Shown piece after piece: positions 2,919 through 19,836 of a stretch of DNA of 20,779 bases. How positions within the stretch are numbered: the first letter of the stretch is position 1; each line of letters opens with the position of its first letter. Location of the stretch: NCBI RefSeq assembly GCF_006345805.1, contig NW_021823918.1:1-20779 (forward strand). The letters run 5' to 3'. The position numbers were made by a program, and so were the translations under genes. Source of the DNA: Octopus sinensis. Its lineage: Eukaryota. Under the pieces are notes generated by a model that was not told where the DNA came from, did not search any database, and was given only the letters and a program-made list of their open reading frames with translations.

Positions 2919-3044
2919 TCTAAGAAATACATTACTACTCAAATGCTTTAGAGTGTGCTTCTTTTCCAGATATATTAACTACTGATGATATATCTATATG
3001 TATATCTTTCATTGACACATATATACACTCATGATGATCTCCAC

Positions 3045-3188
3045 ACAATTTTCATTGATTAAATGTTACAAAACTTTGGTTAACCTGAAGCTCTCATAGA
3101 GGACATTTAACCAATGTTCTGTGCAATGGGATTGTATCTCAAAGATTTGGTTGAATAAGCATAGTTCTAGACCACACAGCAATGCCTG
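3045..3188 (-). mobile_element. Highly decayed tRNA-SINE family A, 5' part
   Basis: Colinear by eye with 4190-4332 (CTTTGGTT...GCT...GACA...TGGGA...ACCACACAGC). Confidence 0.55.
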
Positions 3189-3330
3189 TTCAATTGTTAT
3201 CAGCAAAGAATAAGAATTTTACCAAAAAAAAAAAATACTGGTATACTTCCCACCAATCTATATTTGATATAAAAAGGATTTATATATCAATCTCTCTTAT
3301 ATATTCTGCATTCTGTAACAGATGGAACCA

Positions 3331-3730
3331 TTGTAATATAAAATTTAATACAATGCTACATGATATGCAAGACATTTGTATACACACATATATACATACA
3401 CAAACATGCATTCATACATACATACATACATACATGCATGCATAGTCACACACACACACACACTGACCCACACACTTGTGCACAAACAAACAAAATGGAA
3501 CGCAGTATAAATAATGGACAGGCAATAGCCGGCTGTAGTTGTAACTGGGCTTCATGTACCTTTGCATGTCATTTCAATCAATCAATCAATGTAGTTATCA
3601 TGCAATGCCTGTGCAAGAAGACTTTTTTTAAAGTGGGGAAAGGCTGTGCACTGAGTGTATGTATATATGTGTGTATGCAAATGTCTTGTAATATAAAATT
3701 TAATACAATGCCCATGATAAAATTGCAGAC
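3331..3730. repeat. Complex templated insertion bounded by a direct duplication
   Basis: 3331-3356 = 3686-3711 (26 bp exact). 3372-3521 is an inverted copy of 5825-5964. 3518-3656 is a direct copy of 5092-5230 (136/139). 3655-3688 is an inverted copy of 3368-3401 (33/34). Confidence 0.9.
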
Positions 3731-3910
3731 TACAGCACATATGTTATCACAAGAACACAAATTTCACAACTCGTGAAGTAGATACAGCAATGTCACTAGG
3801 CACACTGCCTAATGAAGGTCACTGCTAGCTCTCACTGCAAATGCAACCATGTACTGCCATCTGCTGGCATGATACACAACTAGTCCGGGAACTTTATGAT
3901 ACCACCTTGT
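3712..3910 (-). mobile_element. Mariner-like transposon end (single TIR remnant)
   Basis: Reverse complement of 3882-3909 is CAAGGTGGTATCATAAAGTTCCCGGACT next to a TA tract, resembling mariner-type TIRs. No partner TIR found. Confidence 0.45.
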
Positions 3911-4944: not shown

Positions 4945-5398
4945 TATATATATATATGATGGCTGCCCCCTCGTTATTGAGTATGGCCATTGCACAAGGC
5001 TTAACTGTTATTGGTACTGTGATCGAATGTTACTTTTTAGCGCAGCTAAAGATCTACAGTGTCTTGTACAGAATTGGCAGCTAAAACCTTTACAGGCAAT
5101 AGCCGGCTGTAGTTGTAACTGGGCTTCATGTACCTTTGCATGTCATTTCAATCAATCAATCAATGTAGTTATCATGTAATGCCTGTGCAAGAAGACTTTT
5201 TTTTAAGTGAGGAAAGGCTGTGCACTGAGTTAATCCCACTCACTAAGGAACAGCAGCCATAGTCCGAAAAGATGAACAAGTCAACATCATCGGTAACCAC
5301 TGAACCGCAGGTTTTATGTCGGAGTTATCCCAGTTACCTGAGTTGCCTTCTCCTAGAAGGATGCCCTAACAAAGGCTAGCAGTCCTTCACTCCCAAGT
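4945..5398 (-). mobile_element. Internally deleted (bipartite) RTE-clade element
   Basis: Minus strand: RTE-like 5' UTR motif CTAGGAGAAGG (about 5345-5355), then C-terminal peptide FSCQFCTRHCRSLAALKSNIRSQYQ* (5085-5008; degenerate RTE terminal zinc finger), then 3' end ATGGCCATACTCAATAACGAGGGGGCAGCCATC and an (AT)n tract. Confidence 0.65.
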
Positions 5399-5457
5399 AT
5401 ATATATATATACAAACATGTATACATATATATATATATATATATTATACAAACATGT

Positions 5458-5496
<39 letters not shown>

Positions 5497-5581
5497 AACA
5501 TGTATACATATATATATACATATATACAAACATGTATACATATATATATACATATATACAAACATGTATACATATATATGG

Positions 5582-5620
<39 letters not shown>

Positions 5621-5622
5621 CA
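5398..5622. repeat. (AT)n-based minisatellite with ACAAACATGTATAC spacers
   Basis: Five copies of the 14-mer at 5411, 5448, 5494, 5526 and 5558; the last three have a 32-bp period. Confidence 0.92.
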
Positions 5623-5624
5623 CA

Positions 5625-6943
5625 TATTTCGTTTTTGGATTTGGTTTGCAAGATTCTTTATATGAGTTCGTGTGTTGAAGCATATTCTGTTGTGTCTGGG
5701 GAGAGTCATTTTCTTTTCATGCCTTATAATGTAACACACTCACCAGTAAAATTTCCACTTATTTCTTATTTTTATTTTCCTAAAAGTTTCGTTGCGTCTT
5801 GCAACCTTTTCAATAGTCTTGACTCTGTCCGTTATTTACACTGCGTTCCTTTTTGTTTGTTTGTGCACGTGTGTGTGGGTCAGTGCGTGTGTGTGTGACT
5901 ATGCATGTATGTATGTATGTATGAATGCATGTTTGTGTATGTATATATGTGTGTATGCAAATGTATATATGTATGTATGTGTGTGCATCTGTATGTATTC
6001 TGCATATTCATGTGCTTGCATGGCGTTTGTGTATTTTTTTATGTATGTGTGAGTGAGTGTTTGTATTTGTATGCACCTCTTTCTCCTTATGTGTGCATGT
6101 GTGTGTGTTTTGCAACTATGTACCATGTTTGTATGTATGGATGTGAATCTCTATATGTGTGGATATGTGTCTCTATATGTGTCCTTGTGTGAAGTAAAGT
6201 GTGTGTGTATATGGTCATGTGTTTCAGTCTCCATGTGTGCTTGTCTGTTCATATAACCTATGTACCTATCTGTCTGTATGTTGATCTGTTTATTTACATA
6301 TCTATATGCTTACATACATGTGCATATGCACATATATACCAACACACACACACGCATACATAACATACATAACAGCCCACTAACTATTCTACTCTACCTG
6401 TGTAAACTGTGGGTGTGGAGGTATGATATCTACTATGTATATTTTCTATTTAGTATTGGAGAAGTTTCATTTATAAGGACATACTCCCGTATTTGTCTGA
6501 GTGTTGGGCCTTTTGGGTGCTCGGATAAGATGTGGATGTCAAGTTGACCCAAGTTGCTTCCATGGTGGTTTTTGGCATGTTGGTAGAGTATGGAGGACTG
6601 TTTTTTGTCATCATATTGTCTCAGATGTACATTTAGTTGTTCTGCAATGCTCCTAGATGTCTCCCCTATGTACATCATGTTCATGTCTTTACAAGCACCT
6701 TCTATGCATCTTATGCTGTAAACTACATTTCGAGTTCTACAGTTAATGTCAGGATTAATCCTACATACCATGCAGTTATCATTGGTGCATATGGTATTCT
6801 CAAAGGGGTACAGCCTACATCATGATCTGACAGAGTTTCCTGGTTTTCCAACAATCTTAATGTTGAGTTTGGTCTCCTTCAGAGCTTTTCTAAATCTACA
6901 GGCTAGTTCTCCATGCAAGCACATGAATATGCTAGTTCTCCAT
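5625..6943 (-). mobile_element. 5'-truncated Penelope-like retroelement (linker + endonuclease + 3' region)
   Basis: GIY-YIG coding remnant followed on the minus strand by a CA/TA-rich region and a hammerhead-like stem (5779-5813). Assigning 5625-6430 to the same element is inference. Confidence 0.7.
6433..6912 (-). pseudogene. PLE GIY-YIG endonuclease plus Cys-rich linker, inactive
   Basis: GELACRFRKALKETKLNIKIVGKPGNSVRS*CRLYPFENTICTNDNCMVC...NCRTRNVVYSIRC...C...YIGETSRSIAEQLNVH...LYQH...RQIRE...LNRK. Contains VVY/YIG, CCHH and a linker CX4CX2C; one in-frame TGA; Q at the usual catalytic Arg position. Confidence 0.88.
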
Positions 6944-7387
6944 AGCCATTGCAGAAGCTATGAGTAGATGAAATGATGTTAGCATGGATAAATGTCAACC
7001 ATTTTGCATTCACATTGTCATCCCTTATCACTTTATTTTCCACTGAACATCTCTTTCTCCTGAACACCCTTTCACATCTGCCATCATTGACACTGAAATT
7101 CAGAGACTTTCAGAAGAACAAACTAAAAACTGTAGCATGAGATGTGCTTCAACAGAAAACTGAAAGAGAGCAACTACTTGAGGAAAAATGCCATCATATT
7201 CTAATATGAGAAGCTGCAAAATATTACTTATTTTGGCATAAAGTAATGAGACATGCACTAGTATGTATAATAGACAAACATATAAAATATAGTAAGAGAA
7301 AAAGGAAGTTCAGGAAATCAGCATTCCATGTGAAATCCTAGCTTTCATGAGAGAAAAAATATTTTTGAATTAACTGGACTTAATTTC

Positions 7388-7536
7388 CTATTTAGTATTG
7401 GAGAAGTTTCATTTATAAGGACATACTCCCGTATTTGTCTGAGTGTTAGGCCTTTTGGGTGCTCGGATAAGATGTGGATGTCAAGTTGACCCAAGTTGCT
7501 TCCATGGTGGTTTTTGGCATGTTGGTAGAGTATGGA
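7388..7536 (-). repeat. Local duplicate of PLE endonuclease segment 6446-6594
   Basis: 148/149 identical, same orientation, 942 bp away. Confidence 0.95.
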
Positions 7537-7640
7537 AATGTACCAATTATAAGAATAATGAATTCAATGCAGAGTATAAAGTAATATGAACAATGGAATA
7601 AATATAGTGATATCACATTTATTAATCAACAACAGTAATA

Positions 7641-10497: not shown

Positions 10498-11640
10498 TTA
10501 ATATGGGAGCCAGATGTAGAAACACTGCCAGATCAGACTGGAGCCTGGCGCAGCTTCCTGGCTTCCCAGACCCTGGTCAAACTGTCCAACCCATGCTAGC
10601 ATGGAAAACGGACATTAAACGATAATGATGATGATGGGGTAGGACCGCCTTTGGCAGTAAATACAGCTTGAATTCTATGAGGTATGGACTCATACAAAGT
10701 CTGAATTTTTTCAAAAGGAATTTTGTCCATTCTTCAGCTAAAACAGTTTCCAGTTCTTGTAGAGATGATGGTGGAGGATATCGACTCCTTACTTGTTTTT
10801 CTAAAATGCACCATAAATGTTCAATAATATTGAGATCTGGGGACTGTGGTGGCCAGATAAGATGTCCAATGTCACCAGAATGTTCCTTGTGCCATTCAGT
10901 AACAACTTTAGCTGTGTAAATTGATGCATTATCATCCTGAAAGATTGTGTTTCCCTCCAGAAACAGTTTCACAACCATAGGATGAATTTGATCAGATAAA
11001 ATGCTTAAATAATCTTGACTATTAATTCTGCCATGAAGGCAAACCATTGGGCCGGTGGATCTCCAAGATACAGACCCTCAGATCATCACAGATCCTCCTC
11101 CATGTTTAACAGTTGGAAGAAGGCAGTCTGGATCAAATATTTCCTTTGGCTGTCTCCACACATATACTTGGCTGGTGGTTGGAAATAAGGTAAAGGATGA
11201 CTTGTCCAAGAAAACAACATTCTTCAACTACTCTAGGGACAATTCTGTAGGTTTTTACTCCACTCTAAATGCTTTGCAACATTTGTTTTTGAAAGTAGTG
11301 CTTTTCTTATTGCAGCCCTCCTGTGAAATCTGACTTTGTGCAACTCCTGGTGAGCAGTTTTTCTGGAAACTGGGTTCTCGAGGTAGTCATTAAGCTCTGC
11401 AGTAATTTTGGGAGTTGTACTTTTGTGATTCTTTCTAACAGTTCGCATAAGAGTCCAAAGGTCCCTATCTATAAGTTTTGGTTTTCTTCTGGAGTTGTTT
11501 CGACAAGCAGGTTTTTCCCTCTTTTTCAAAGGGTGTCATTACTTTCAAGACAGTACTTCTTGATACACCAAACATTTTGGCTGTTTTCGTTACACTAGCA
11601 CCCGCCATACGATTCTTTGAAAGTCCAATAAATCTGCCAT
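10498..11640 (-). pseudogene. Tc1-family transposase pseudogene
   Basis: ATG at 11640 (MADLLDFQR...MAGASVTKTAKMFGVSRSTV, helix-turn-helix region); IFQDDNA...WPPQSPDLNIIEHLW; reconstructed end AKGGPTPY* (stop 10500-10498); several frameshifts. Confidence 0.92.
10508..10633 (+). mobile_element. 5'-truncated RTE-like LINE 3' end nested in the Tc1 element
   Basis: CCATGCTAGCATGGAAAACGGACATTAAAC(GAT)n tail shared with five other copies; TSD ATGGG at 10503-10507 and 10634-10638. Confidence 0.88.
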
Positions 11641-13012: not shown

Positions 13013-13607
13013 AAATATACATTTAGTCAATTTTATTGTAGTAATTGTTATTTAGAATTTCTAGCCAGTACATCCTTGTCATGAGAACATACACCAAAGA
13101 CTGAGAAAGGTAACTTATTTATGATGAAAATGTTTTTCACATTGAACAGCCATAAATCACATGAATAAATTATAATTTAATGTATCTATATGAAGACAGT
13201 ATTTAAATTCATCATCAACACTTTATATCCACTTGTCCATGCTTCTTATTTCGAGTCATTGCCCTCCAAGAGGAGTCCAGTACAAGTCTCATTTATATAA
13301 TCCAAACATGTTAAAAATGGAGCATTCTAGCATGGCATTGAATAATCAAAAACTGTTAGACCATGTATCAACAAAATGTAAAGAATGTGAGAAGCTGAAT
13401 CACTTTAATTAATTGCAAAACAACATTCTGATCTTTTACTGAGTTGTTTTATATAATTATTTATCAATTTCGTAGACCAGTATAAGAAACAGCTGGTCAC
13501 ACTATTAACTACTGAAATAATGTCATATATATCATAAAGAAAGTCCATCAACATTATCAACTGTAGTAAGGGCATCTGCTAAAAAGGCAGTAAGGGCATC
13601 TGCTAAA

Positions 13608-14183
13608 TTGGCAATGAAATGCAGATTGTTGACAGGATGGATTCTTAGAACTTTTAGAACAAGAAATCAAGAAACTACGATGGTCCTCTGGAGGACACTT
13701 GTCCTCAGCAACATTAACTATTGCTCTCAGCTATGGTCACCAACCAGTGTCAAATTAATCTCAGAACTTGAGGCAATCCAACGAAGCTACATGAAGAAGA
13801 TAGCCTCTATGCAGCATATAGGCTATTGGGAAAGACTCAAGAGATTGAGACTCTATTCCTTAGAGCGTAGGTGAGGAAGATATGCCATAATATACATCTG
13901 GAAGGACTTGTCCCTAACTTTGGCATTGAGAGTTACACAAATACTAGAACTGGGTGCCACTGCATAATGCCAAGGATTCCAAATTTGCCATCAAGATGTA
14001 GGACAAGATACTGCAATAGCCTGGGCTTCAAAGGTCCACAGCTCTTCAATATCCTCCCAAAGGACCTGAGAGACCTGCATGGGGTGGATGTAGGTGTCTT
14101 CAAAATAAAGCTGAACCTCTTCCTGTCAAGTGTCCCAGATGAATCAACTTTATGGCCGGAGGTGTAGATGAGGGCAGCTGCAT
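13608..14183 (+). pseudogene. CR1-clade LINE ORF2 C-terminal remnant
   Basis: GWILRTF...YCSQLWSP...LEAIQR...YWERLKRLRLYSLERR, then after a frameshift GPQLFNILP...FKIKLNLFLSSVPDE: typical post-RT region of CR1-group ORF2. Confidence 0.88.
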
Positions 14184-16008: not shown

Positions 16009-16657
16009 ATGATGAGCAGCCGAGACCTTTGGAGAAATGCTGTGCTTAAGAAGACCCGGCAAGCCAAGCAAGACCGTAACCATGACCTATGCCAGTGCAG
16101 CATAACCGGCCCATTTAAGAGCACCCTTCAATCATTGGGCTTTAGAAGACCTGTTGAATGAAGTGAAATCATTGTCATGGCTGATGCCATACCGCCTAAC
16201 TGGCTCCCATGCTAGTGGCACATAAAAAACACTATTCAAGTGTGGTCATTGCTAGTGCCGCCTGACTAGCTCCCATGCCGTTGGCACGTAAAAAGCAGCA
16301 TTCGAGGGTGGTTGTTGCCAGTGCCATCTGATTGGTTCCTGTGCCAGTAGCACCATTTGAGCATGGTCATTGCTAGTGTCATGTGATTGGCTCTAATGCT
16401 GGTGGCACATAAAAAGCACCATTCAACATGGTCGATGCCAGTACCACCTGACTCATCCTCCTGTCATTAGCATGTAAAGAGCCTCCACTACACTCTCTGA
16501 GTGGTTGGCATTAGGAAGGGCATCTAGGGCATCTAGTTGTAGAAACCTTGCTAGATCAGATAGGGGCATGGTACAGCCTTCTGGTTGTCAGTCCTTAGTT
16601 AAACTGTCCAACCCATGACAGTATGGAAAGTGGACATTAAACGATGATGATAATGAT
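16009..16657 (+). mobile_element. RTE-like LINE 3' fragment with ORF end and about 66-bp tandem repeats in the 3' UTR
   Basis: Begins with coding-like SSRDLWRNAVLKKTRQAK (resembles the RTE-type DR..WR terminus); about 4.5 diverged units at 16201-16490; (GAT)n tail. Confidence 0.8.
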
Positions 16658-18330: not shown

Positions 18331-18453
18331 ACTACACTCTCTGAGTGGTTGGCAATAGGAAGGGCGTCTAGCTGTAGAAACCTTGCCAGATCAGATTGGA
18401 GCATGGTACAGCCTTCTGGTTGACAGTATGGAAAGTGGACATTAAACGATGAT
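18331..18453 (+). mobile_element. RTE-like 3' fragment, apparently a local copy of 16487-16648
   Basis: Shares variants with the 16.5-kb copy that the other copies lack; has a 30-bp internal deletion. Confidence 0.85.
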
Positions 18454-18966: not shown

Positions 18967-19630
18967 GAGACCATAACCTCATGGCCTATGCCAGGAACGT
19001 AACCAGCTCACTTATGCATATCTTTTCCTTCTTTGGTCACTAAACTCTGCTTGCGATGACCTGTTGAGGCAAGTGACATCAAAATCAAAATCAAATTCGA
19101 TGACTGGCATCCGTGCTAGCGGGGTGCAAAGAGCACTGTATGAGTGTGATCGTTGACAGAGCAGCTAACCGGCTTCCATGTCAGTGGCACATAAAAGGGC
19201 ACCATTCGAGTGTGATCATTACCAGCATCGCCTTACTGGCACTTGTGCCTGTGCTAGTAGGGTGCCAAGAGCACTATCCGAGCGTGATCATTGCCAGAGC
19301 AGCCATCTAGCTTCCGTGCCAATGGCACGTAAAAGGGCGCCATTCGATCATTACCAACGTCGCCTTACTGGCACCTGGGCCGGTGGCATGTGTAAAAAGA
19401 TTTGAGCGAGGTCATTGCCAGTATCGCCTAACTGGCCCCCGTGCCGGTGGCACATAAAAAGCACCCACTACACTCTCGGAGTGGTTGGCATTAGAAAGGG
19501 CATCCAGCTATAGAAACTCTGCCAGATCAAGATTGGGGCCTGGTGCAGCCATCTGATTCGCCAGCTCTCAGCCAAAATCATCCAATTCATGCTAGCATGG
19601 AAAGCAGACGTTAAACGATGATGATTATGA
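18967..19630 (+). mobile_element. RTE-like LINE 3' UTR fragment with internal tandem repeats
   Basis: Colinear with 16070-16657; repeats at about 19105-19465; (GAT)n tail. Confidence 0.85.
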
Positions 19631-19647
19631 ATAAACATGCATTTTAA

Positions 19648-19836
19648 CATCATCATCATTATCATTTAATGTCCATCTTCCATGCATACATGGATAGGAC
19701 AGATAAAGGGAACCAGCCCAGTAGAAGACTACCTTAGGTTATTGTATCTGTTTGGGGCAGGGTTTTTACGGTTGGATGCCCATCCTAACACCAACCACTT
19801 TGCAGAGTGGACAGAGTTCTTTTTGCATGGCACCAG

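What the first reader, a model, noticed from the sequence alone, without database searches (positions are those of the whole stretch)
3331..3730. Three-part patchwork insertion copied from DNA 1.5-2.5 kb downstream and from itself
Seen: a 26-bp exact duplication (about 40 bp imperfect) encloses (a) an inverted copy of 5825-5964, joined through ACAG microhomology (3518-3521) to (b) a direct copy of 5092-5230, joined through GT to (c) a fold-back copy of the insert's own start (3368-3401). Part (c) includes CAAG, which the distal source lacks, and rejoins the flank through TTG. Known: iterative microhomology-primed template switching is the signature of polymerase-theta-mediated end joining and MMBIR/FoSTeS. 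Inference: one repair event with about four switches. The product has 34-bp inverted ends and a flanking duplication, so it mimics a MITE.
Basis: partly seen in the sequence, partly recalled or inferred. Interest (0 to 1): 0.75.

Follow-up and report, generated by a model that had tools for sequence, protein, structure and literature searches.

The report
Patchwork DNA-repair scar from nearby DNA
A 330-base insert made of two copied pieces of neighbouring DNA and a short fold-back of itself is found at only this one place in the genome, and is most likely the old scar of an error-prone repair of a broken chromosome, a kind of event already catalogued in vertebrates.

Summary
In detail: a 26-bp exact duplication encloses an inverted copy of 5825-5964, a direct copy of 5092-5230 and a 34-bp fold-back, joined by 2-4-nt microhomologies (joint chance about 0.0008). 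Part (b) carries a junction found only in the local copy, and (a) and (b) share 4 and 3 rare variants with their local donors. No junction or inverted end recurs in the genome, so this is not a MITE family. Copy and donors differ by 3%, and another run holds one junction, so it is not an assembly artefact. It fits the chimeric proximal repair-mediated duplications of Pace et al. 2009 (median 147 bp, donors under 5 kb, microhomology). The fold-back and the longer flanking duplication are the extras. Three clear single-donor look-alikes were found in 1 Mb of this genome. The enzyme and copying direction are not determined, and no empty allele was obtained. The 8 earlier scan notes shown (of 29 fitting) did not describe this class.

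The parts
3331..3356 (+). Left copy of the exact 26-bp flanking duplication
3357..3373 (+). Corrupted continuation of the left duplicate: C to TA, a 4-nt loss and one added A relative to the right copy; ends in the AC microhomology with (a)
   Evidence: the right copy is the ungapped one against the host repeat family
3368..3401 (+). Left inverted end (flank CAAG plus the start of a); likely template of the fold-back
   Evidence: 33/34 to the reverse complement of 3655-3688
3372..3521 (-). Part (a): inverted copy of donor 5825-5964
   Evidence: best hit and 4 shared rare variants
3518..3656 (+). Part (b): direct copy of donor 5092-5230, including the donor's copy-specific internal junction
   Evidence: run X3 has a contig at 3485-3549 across the a/b junction
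3655..3688 (+). Part (c): 34-bp inverted repeat of the insert start; its first 30 nt are identical to 5935-5964
3686..3730 (+). Right, intact copy of the duplicated flank (exact part 3686-3711); runs on into an old repeat (about 3709-3905, 83-86% to its family)
5092..5230 (+). Donor of (b), inside a two-armed repeat (4945-5396) set in TA microsatellite; spans the copy-specific arm junction near 5148-5158
5825..5964 (+). Donor of (a), inside a high-copy SINE-like repeat whose family alignment runs past both ends (5760-6010 tested)
5796..5803 (-). Possible fifth micro-template: the only other place in the window with the 8-mer at 3366-3373, on the same strand as (a) and 21 bp from its donor; suggestive only

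Best explanation
This is a single-locus insertion copied from two nearby donors and from its own start, most likely made in one germline break-repair event by DNA synthesis that was repeatedly re-primed at 2-4-nt microhomologies (a chimeric proximal repair-mediated duplication, SDSA- or MMBIR-like). Shown: the pieces, their donors, the direction of copying (donor to insert), the microhomologies and the uniqueness in the genome. Inferred path, written on the top strand: the 3' end at about 3373 primes at 5964 through AC and copies 140 nt inverted; it switches through ACAG to 5092 and copies 139 nt; it folds back through GT onto its own new strand at 3401 and copies 34 nt across the first junction; it re-anneals through TTG at 3331, about 40 bp upstream of where it left, which duplicates the flank. 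The same product can be made from the right-hand end, or from both ends with annealing at ACAG. The polymerase is not identified.
For: Local donors. (b) scores 238 bits over its full length against 5092-5230; the next best of the 38 other scored places scores 132 bits and none covers its first 53 bases (40 of 967 candidates scored). (b) shares 5097C (1 of 6 family copies), 5167A (0 of 32) and 5196C (1 of 32) with the local donor. (a) shares 5898A (1 of 34), 5924A (0 of 34), 5933T (1 of 34) and 5960A (0 of 28). The 30-mer of (c) is exact in 0 of 34 family copies, and the local donor is its only other genome hit. Direction: family alignments run through both donors and past their ends. Microhomology of 2, 4, 2 and 3 nt: P(all at least 2 and sum at least 11) = 0.0008 in 200,000 random joins, and 0.0016 for the three junctions without the first. 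The added A at the first junction is absent from the right flank copy but present in (c), so it arose before (c) was copied, which implies ordered synthesis. All three flank changes lie in the last 17 nt before the first junction, as expected of error-prone synthesis near a switch (PMC5068794 passages). Size, distance, microhomology and two-donor chimerism match PMC2671141.
Against: No empty allele or outgroup orthologue was obtained, so the pre-insertion state is inferred only from the duplication. By bit score alone the local donor of (a) is barely ahead (195 vs 192), two of its four diagnostic sites lie in microsatellite where alignment is uncertain, and only the 34 best-scoring of thousands of family copies were compared. 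At the single site where (c) can choose, it agrees with the distal donor and not with the insert start, so the fold-back needs that change in (a) to be later. The flanking duplication (26 exact, about 43 imperfect) is longer than the 4-21 nt reported for this class. The fold-back would be primed by only 2 nt.
Confidence: 0.8

Rival explanations
1. Both ends of a staggered cut were primed on one single-stranded top-strand template (a local transcript or displaced strand spanning 5092-5964), for example by a Penelope-type reverse transcriptase. The left arm is (a), the right arm is (c) then (b), the arms annealed at ACAG, and the duplication is a target-site duplication.
For: The sequence shows that, read inward from each flank, (a), (c) and (b) are all complements of the top strand and both arms start at 5964. 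A GIY-YIG fragment lies at 6436-6819 (PF01541, E 1.4e-4). Donor (b) sits in a two-armed repeat in TA microsatellite. Earlier AI notes propose two-ended copying for other repeats in this genome (unchecked leads). PMC11702581 passages report L1 insertions that carry locally templated DNA.
Against: Both arms carry CAAG next to 5964, which the donor lacks, so the template itself would have to be rearranged (for example a 5964-to-5798 join). There is no poly(A) or simple-repeat tail, the target is not a TA repeat, and the piece ends do not match the ends of the two-armed element (4945, 5396). No hammerhead was found in that family. In PMC2671141, 0 of 39 proximal acceptors had poly(A/T) tails.
Confidence: 0.08
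2. Canonical polymerase-theta-mediated end joining made the whole insert.
For: Short microhomologies, snap-back geometry and errors clustered near a junction are POLQ features (PMC5068794 passages); the last two switches (34 nt, break-proximal) fit well.
Against: C. elegans POLQ inserts are mostly under 25 bp and about 85% are primed within 10 bp of the break; here the two main donors are about 140 bp and 1.7-2.6 kb away.
Confidence: 0.25
3. Two successive events: a two-donor insertion first, then a later local fold-back duplication that added (c) and the second flank copy.
For: (a) differs from its donor at 7 of 140 sites plus 2 gaps, while (c) differs at 0 of 30 and the exact duplication at 0 of 26.
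Against: (b) differs at only 3 of 139 sites, so the counts are small and uneven. The right flank is the intact copy and joins directly to (c), which one event explains with fewer steps.
Confidence: 0.08
4. A MITE or other mobile element with 34-bp terminal inverted repeats and a target-site duplication.
For: Inverted ends and a flanking duplication; the insert folds as a long hairpin.
Against: The 20-mer of the inverted end occurs exactly once in 2.72 Gb. The a/b junction is spanned only here among 40 scored of 65 candidates, and the b/c/flank stretch has 2 of 2 hits, both in this contig. The inverted ends overlap the duplication by TTG and consist of donor sequence.
Confidence: 0.02
5. Assembly artefact in a small unplaced contig.
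For: The window is a whole 20.8-kb contig, and the two right-hand junctions were not covered in the runs laid.
Against: Copy and donors differ at 10 of 335 sites, with changes on both sides (6 on the insert, 4 on the donors). A 65-nt contig of run X3 crosses the a/b junction with 1 difference, and contigs of X3 and X19 run from the unique flank 9 nt into the insert up to the tool's mask.
Confidence: 0.02

Closest known systems
Proximal repair-mediated duplications (RDs), chimeric type (Pace, Sen, Batzer, Feschotte 2009, PMC2671141; parts 1-3 of 8 and passages read, supplements not read)
   Same: Donor within 5 kb; length near their median of 147 bp; microhomology 2-9 nt; no poly(A/T) tail; two donors close together (5 of their 20 chimeras, second donor 289-3,432 bp from the first; here 595 bp); a target duplication in 6 of 39 proximal cases.
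   Different: A third, self-templated fold-back piece; a duplication of 26-43 bp against 4-21 nt; an invertebrate genome (likely octopus, from recall), whereas their survey was vertebrate.
Tandem Short Template (TST) jumps, MMBIR-type chains (Umbreit et al. 2020, PMC7347108; passages read)
   Same: A chain of tandem short templated pieces (their medians 150-199 bp) drawn from a 1-10-kb hotspot.
   Different: TST jumps are somatic, follow chromosome-bridge breakage, link hotspots megabases apart and show infrequent microhomology; this is an inherited three-piece chain that returns to its own locus with microhomology at all four joins.
POLQ templated insertions, including snap-back (PMC5068794; passages and section 11 read)
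   Same: Reiterated priming at minimal homology, reverse-complement snap-back pieces, errors near switch points.
   Different: Inserts mostly under 25 bp, from within about 10 bp of the break, accompanying deletions rather than a flank duplication.

Membership tests
Proximal repair-mediated duplication (PMC2671141) | Insert of at least 50 bp with an identifiable donor more than 50 bp and less than 5 kb away | tested here: met
Proximal repair-mediated duplication (PMC2671141) | Acceptor with its flanks occurs once in the genome (not a transposed chimera or segmental duplication) | tested here: met
   the DNA searches score at most 40 candidates each
Proximal repair-mediated duplication (PMC2671141) | Repair hallmarks at breakpoints (microhomology, filler, deletion or short duplication) and no poly(A/T) tail | tested here: met
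Proximal repair-mediated duplication (PMC2671141) | Donor unambiguous | tested here: met
   Met by the copy-specific junction and shared rare variants. Their stricter pipeline filter (at most two BLAST hits) would have dropped this case, because both donors are repeat pieces.
Proximal repair-mediated duplication (PMC2671141) | Empty orthologous site in an outgroup, or an interrupted host element | tested here: inconclusive
   No empty allele in 4 runs; organism C did not cover the unique flank; the host repeat aligns right of the insert but not significantly upstream of the duplication (0 of 5 loci above shuffles)
Polymerase-theta-mediated end joining | Templated inserts short (mostly under 25 bp) and primed next to the break | tested here: not met
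   Donors 140 and 139 bp, 1.7-2.6 kb away, against PMC5068794
Polymerase-theta-mediated end joining | Genetic dependence on POLQ | not testable with these tools
   Needs a mutant
MITE | Multiple dispersed copies with the same terminal inverted repeats | tested here: not met
TST jumps | Chain of about 150-200-bp templates from a 1-10-kb hotspot | tested here: met
   Two pieces of about 140 bp and one of 34 bp within 2.6 kb; only three pieces
TST jumps | Association with bridge breakage or chromothripsis and links between distant hotspots | tested here: not met
   All templates lie in this contig and the chain returns to its origin
Retrotransposon-mediated insertion (target-primed reverse transcription) | RNA-like 3' tail and element-defined ends between target-site duplications | tested here: not met
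   No tail; piece ends fall inside both donor elements

The most novel reading that the evidence does not exclude
Both ends of a staggered break were primed at the same point of one single-stranded top-strand template from the same locus (a nascent RNA, or a displaced or circularised strand joining 5964 to 5798, 167 nt), possibly by a Penelope-type reverse transcriptase. That would make local duplications of about 140 bp in this genome a footprint of two-ended, possibly RNA-templated repair rather than fork switching. It would explain why all three pieces complement one strand, why both arms start at 5964, and where the CAAG comes from.
Probability: 0.07. Interest if true: 0.6.

Novelty: new member of a known kind. 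Interest (0 to 1): 0.25.

Why it matters
As one locus it is a neutral scar in repeat-rich non-coding DNA. Its value is as an unusually readable example: the added A that is present in the fold-back but not in the intact flank records the order of synthesis. It also shows how repair alone can build an object with inverted ends and a flanking duplication that transposon finders could call a MITE. The rough rate of about 3 single-donor cases per Mb suggests that proximal repair duplications are common in this invertebrate genome. A search for octopus or cephalopod papers with these terms returned none, so a genome-wide catalogue would be a modest extension of the 2009 vertebrate result.

Tried and rejected
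Empty allele: four runs (X3, X7, X18, X19; 4 of 24 listed) were laid twice. The wide lay was swamped by repeat copies. The narrow lay listed no joints and masked 3377-3476. The b/c and c/flank junctions had no bridging piece among those shown, and organism C (X7) had no cover of 3245-3370; these holes prove nothing. The X3 contig across the a/b junction has 33 letters on the left and 28 beyond the microhomology on the right, just under the tool's 31-letter rule if the overlap is excluded. The X18 contig fits 3037-3367 exactly and its last 62 letters are not shown. Its depth (5.92) matches three covered positions at 3686-3688, which suggests that its continuation was placed on (c), i.e. a filled allele; this is indirect and not used as evidence. 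A paralogous empty site looked plausible by eye but failed against shuffles in 5 of 5 loci. Hammerhead in the family of donor (b): no Rfam hammerhead hit at E up to 0.1 in the window or 4 family loci and no hit to a recalled core motif. The 9-mer match of 3357-3365 to 5170-5178 was rejected because it uses a base that changed later in the donor. Splicing as the b/c join was rejected because there is no AG before 5935. Dating in years was not done: no octopus rate was found. C7 39725, a two-donor candidate from the scan, was dispersed repeat.

Full report
Observation. 3372-3521 is the reverse complement of 5825-5964 (133/150). 3518-3656 matches 5092-5230 (136/139). 3655-3688 is the reverse complement of 3368-3401 (33/34) and its first 30 bases equal 5935-5964. 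3331-3356 equals 3686-3711. The joins overlap by AC, ACAG, GT and TTG. In 200,000 random joins of the same local sequences, all four overlaps at least 2 nt with a sum of at least 11 occurred with P = 0.0008, and P = 0.0016 for the three junctions without the first.

Setting. The window is the whole contig G000:C389 of a 2.72-Gb genome, AT-rich and dense in repeats. It is likely an octopus; that rests on recall and on earlier AI notes, not on a test. No gene overlaps the insert: the ORFs there are low-complexity reading frames.

Are the donors local? Both donors are pieces of high-copy repeats (3,479 and 2,938 first-look candidates), so this needed testing. For (b), the local donor is the only full-length hit: 238 bits against at most 132 for the 38 other scored places, none of which covers the first 53 bases (40 of 967 scored). 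The donor spans a junction near 5148-5158 between two arms of a repeat, and none of 32 family loci holds the 46-mer across that junction exactly. (b) also shares 5097C (1 of 6), 5167A (0 of 32) and 5196C (1 of 32) with it. For (a), bit scores barely separate local from distant copies (195 vs 192). It shares four rare states with the local donor: 5898A (1 of 34), 5924A (0 of 34), 5933T (1 of 34) and 5960A (0 of 28); two of these lie in microsatellite. Family alignments continue through both donors and past their ends, so the insert is the copy.

Is it a family or an artefact? The 20-mer at the inverted end occurs once in the genome. The a/b junction is spanned only here (40 of 65 candidates scored), and 3630-3712 has two hits, both in this contig. 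Copy and donors differ at 10 of 335 aligned sites plus two gaps. By family majority, 6 changes are on the insert and 4 on the donors, which an assembly error would not give. In public runs, a 65-nt contig of X3 crosses the a/b junction with one difference, and contigs of X3 and X19 run from the unique flank to 3376, where the tool masks. The other two junctions were not covered and no empty allele appeared.

The duplication and the fold-back. The right flank enters an old repeat (83-86%). Against five family loci the right duplicate is collinear and ungapped in four and has a 1-nt gap against one. The left duplicate carries three changes in its last 17 nt: C to TA, a 4-nt loss and an added A. 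The added A is part of CAAG and appears again in (c), so (c) was copied from a strand that already had the first junction. Two facts favour fold-back over a second visit to the distal donor: C3685, and (c) ending at the very base (5964) where (a) starts. Against it, at 3379/3677 (c) agrees with the donor rather than with (a), which requires that change in (a) to be later. The 8-mer at 3366-3373 has its only other window match at 5796-5803 on the same strand as (a). Its background is 0.035 per kb and 21 of 29 family copies carry it, so a fifth micro-switch is possible but this is post hoc.

Mechanism. Most likely (0.8) one germline repair event with DNA synthesis re-primed at microhomologies; the pieces and joins are shown, the path and enzyme are inferred. 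The product does not reveal direction. It can be written left to right with a 2-nt-primed fold-back, right to left with a 30-bp hairpin, or from both ends with annealing at ACAG. Read inward from both flanks, all three pieces complement the top strand and both arms start at 5964. That keeps a two-ended single-template model, possibly RNA and reverse transcriptase, alive at low probability. A GIY-YIG fragment lies nearby, but there is no tail, no TA target and no hammerhead in the donor family.

Base rate. I took five arbitrary 200-kb blocks. A pair scan gave 75 rows outside the window, most pairs listed twice, and it missed part (a), so it is a lower bound. An architecture scan found 73 direct duplications outside the window, of which 27 passed the local-cover filter, and it recovered the window as positive control. 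Most of the 27 are tandem arrays by their coordinates; I opened five of them and none had two distant donors plus a fold-back. Of the 18 non-window stretches opened, three acceptors are clear single-donor look-alikes. They are C20 block 19574-19662 (89 bp, inside a 59-bp duplication), C7 block 52046-52125 (80 bp, interrupting a SINE, donor 2.3 kb away) and C7 block 48844-48895 (52 bp, inverted). Two more are unclear. Local templated inserts are therefore ordinary here, and the three-part form is rarer (0 in 1 Mb).

Comparison with print. Pace et al. 2009 (PMC2671141; parts 1-3 of 8 and passages) catalogued 824 human repair-mediated duplications with donors within 5 kb, median 147 bp, microhomology 2-9 nt and target duplications of 4-21 nt in 6 of 39 proximal cases. 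Twenty were chimeras, five of them with the second donor within 3.5 kb of the first. This locus meets those features and adds a fold-back and a longer duplication. TST jumps (PMC7347108, passages) share the piece size but not the context. POLQ inserts in C. elegans (PMC5068794, passages and section 11) are much shorter and closer. PMC11702581 (passages) shows that L1 can leave locally templated DNA. A search for at least four of octopus, cephalopod, templated insertion, template switching and microhomology found 0 papers. The library lacks most subscription papers.

Verdict. Real, single-locus and well explained: a new member of a known kind. Interest 0.25.

Noticed in passing
window 6441-6594 and 7383-7536: 154-bp direct repeat at 98.7%. 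The first copy lies in a GIY-YIG fragment (PF01541, E 1.4e-4), and a distant relative aligns across 6380-6626 but only over 7383-7537 at the second copy. Either a Penelope-type partial tandem repeat (recalled feature) or a second proximal repair duplication.
   Followed up: partly
window 4945-5396: Two-armed copy of a roughly 500-bp high-copy repeat set in TA microsatellite; the two arms are in opposite orientation in L016 and L033 and joined at a copy-specific junction here. No hammerhead found.
   Followed up: partly
window 10580-11535 (minus strand): Broken Tc1/mariner-type transposase: DDE_3 (E 1.4e-11) and HTH_Tnp_Tc3_2 (E 5.4e-10) in two frames.
   Followed up: partly
window 13521-14167: Two short ORFs that look like the end of a LINE reverse-transcriptase gene (recalled resemblance); no Pfam hit.
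   Followed up: partly
window 16185-16444 and 19096-19489; 16616-16648 and 18421-18453; 2761-2929: A repeat family with about 66-bp tandem units, a 33-bp exact direct repeat, and a 60-bp inverted repeat.
   Followed up: no
G000:C1 about 50150283-50151170 (L105): Two-armed inverted repeat of a roughly 356-bp unit between TA tracts, with a weak hammerhead HH9 match (E 4e-4, below the gathering score), like the repeats described in earlier scan notes.
   Followed up: partly
G000:C7 about 40048844-40052125: One locally unique stretch (block 49686-50001) appears to have donated two separate short inserts, 1.1 and 2.3 kb away; one has a short repeated snippet at its left junction.
   Followed up: partly
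G000:C20 about 15019519-15019766: 59-bp duplication enclosing an 89-bp copy of DNA about 270 bp upstream, with a 4-nt overlap and 45 unassigned bases: the nearest look-alike of this finding.
   Followed up: partly
window 3000-3366: No allelic copy of the left flank was found elsewhere in the assembly (best other hit 72%, 40 of 59 candidates scored), so this small contig does not look like a redundant haplotype of a placed region.
   Followed up: partly
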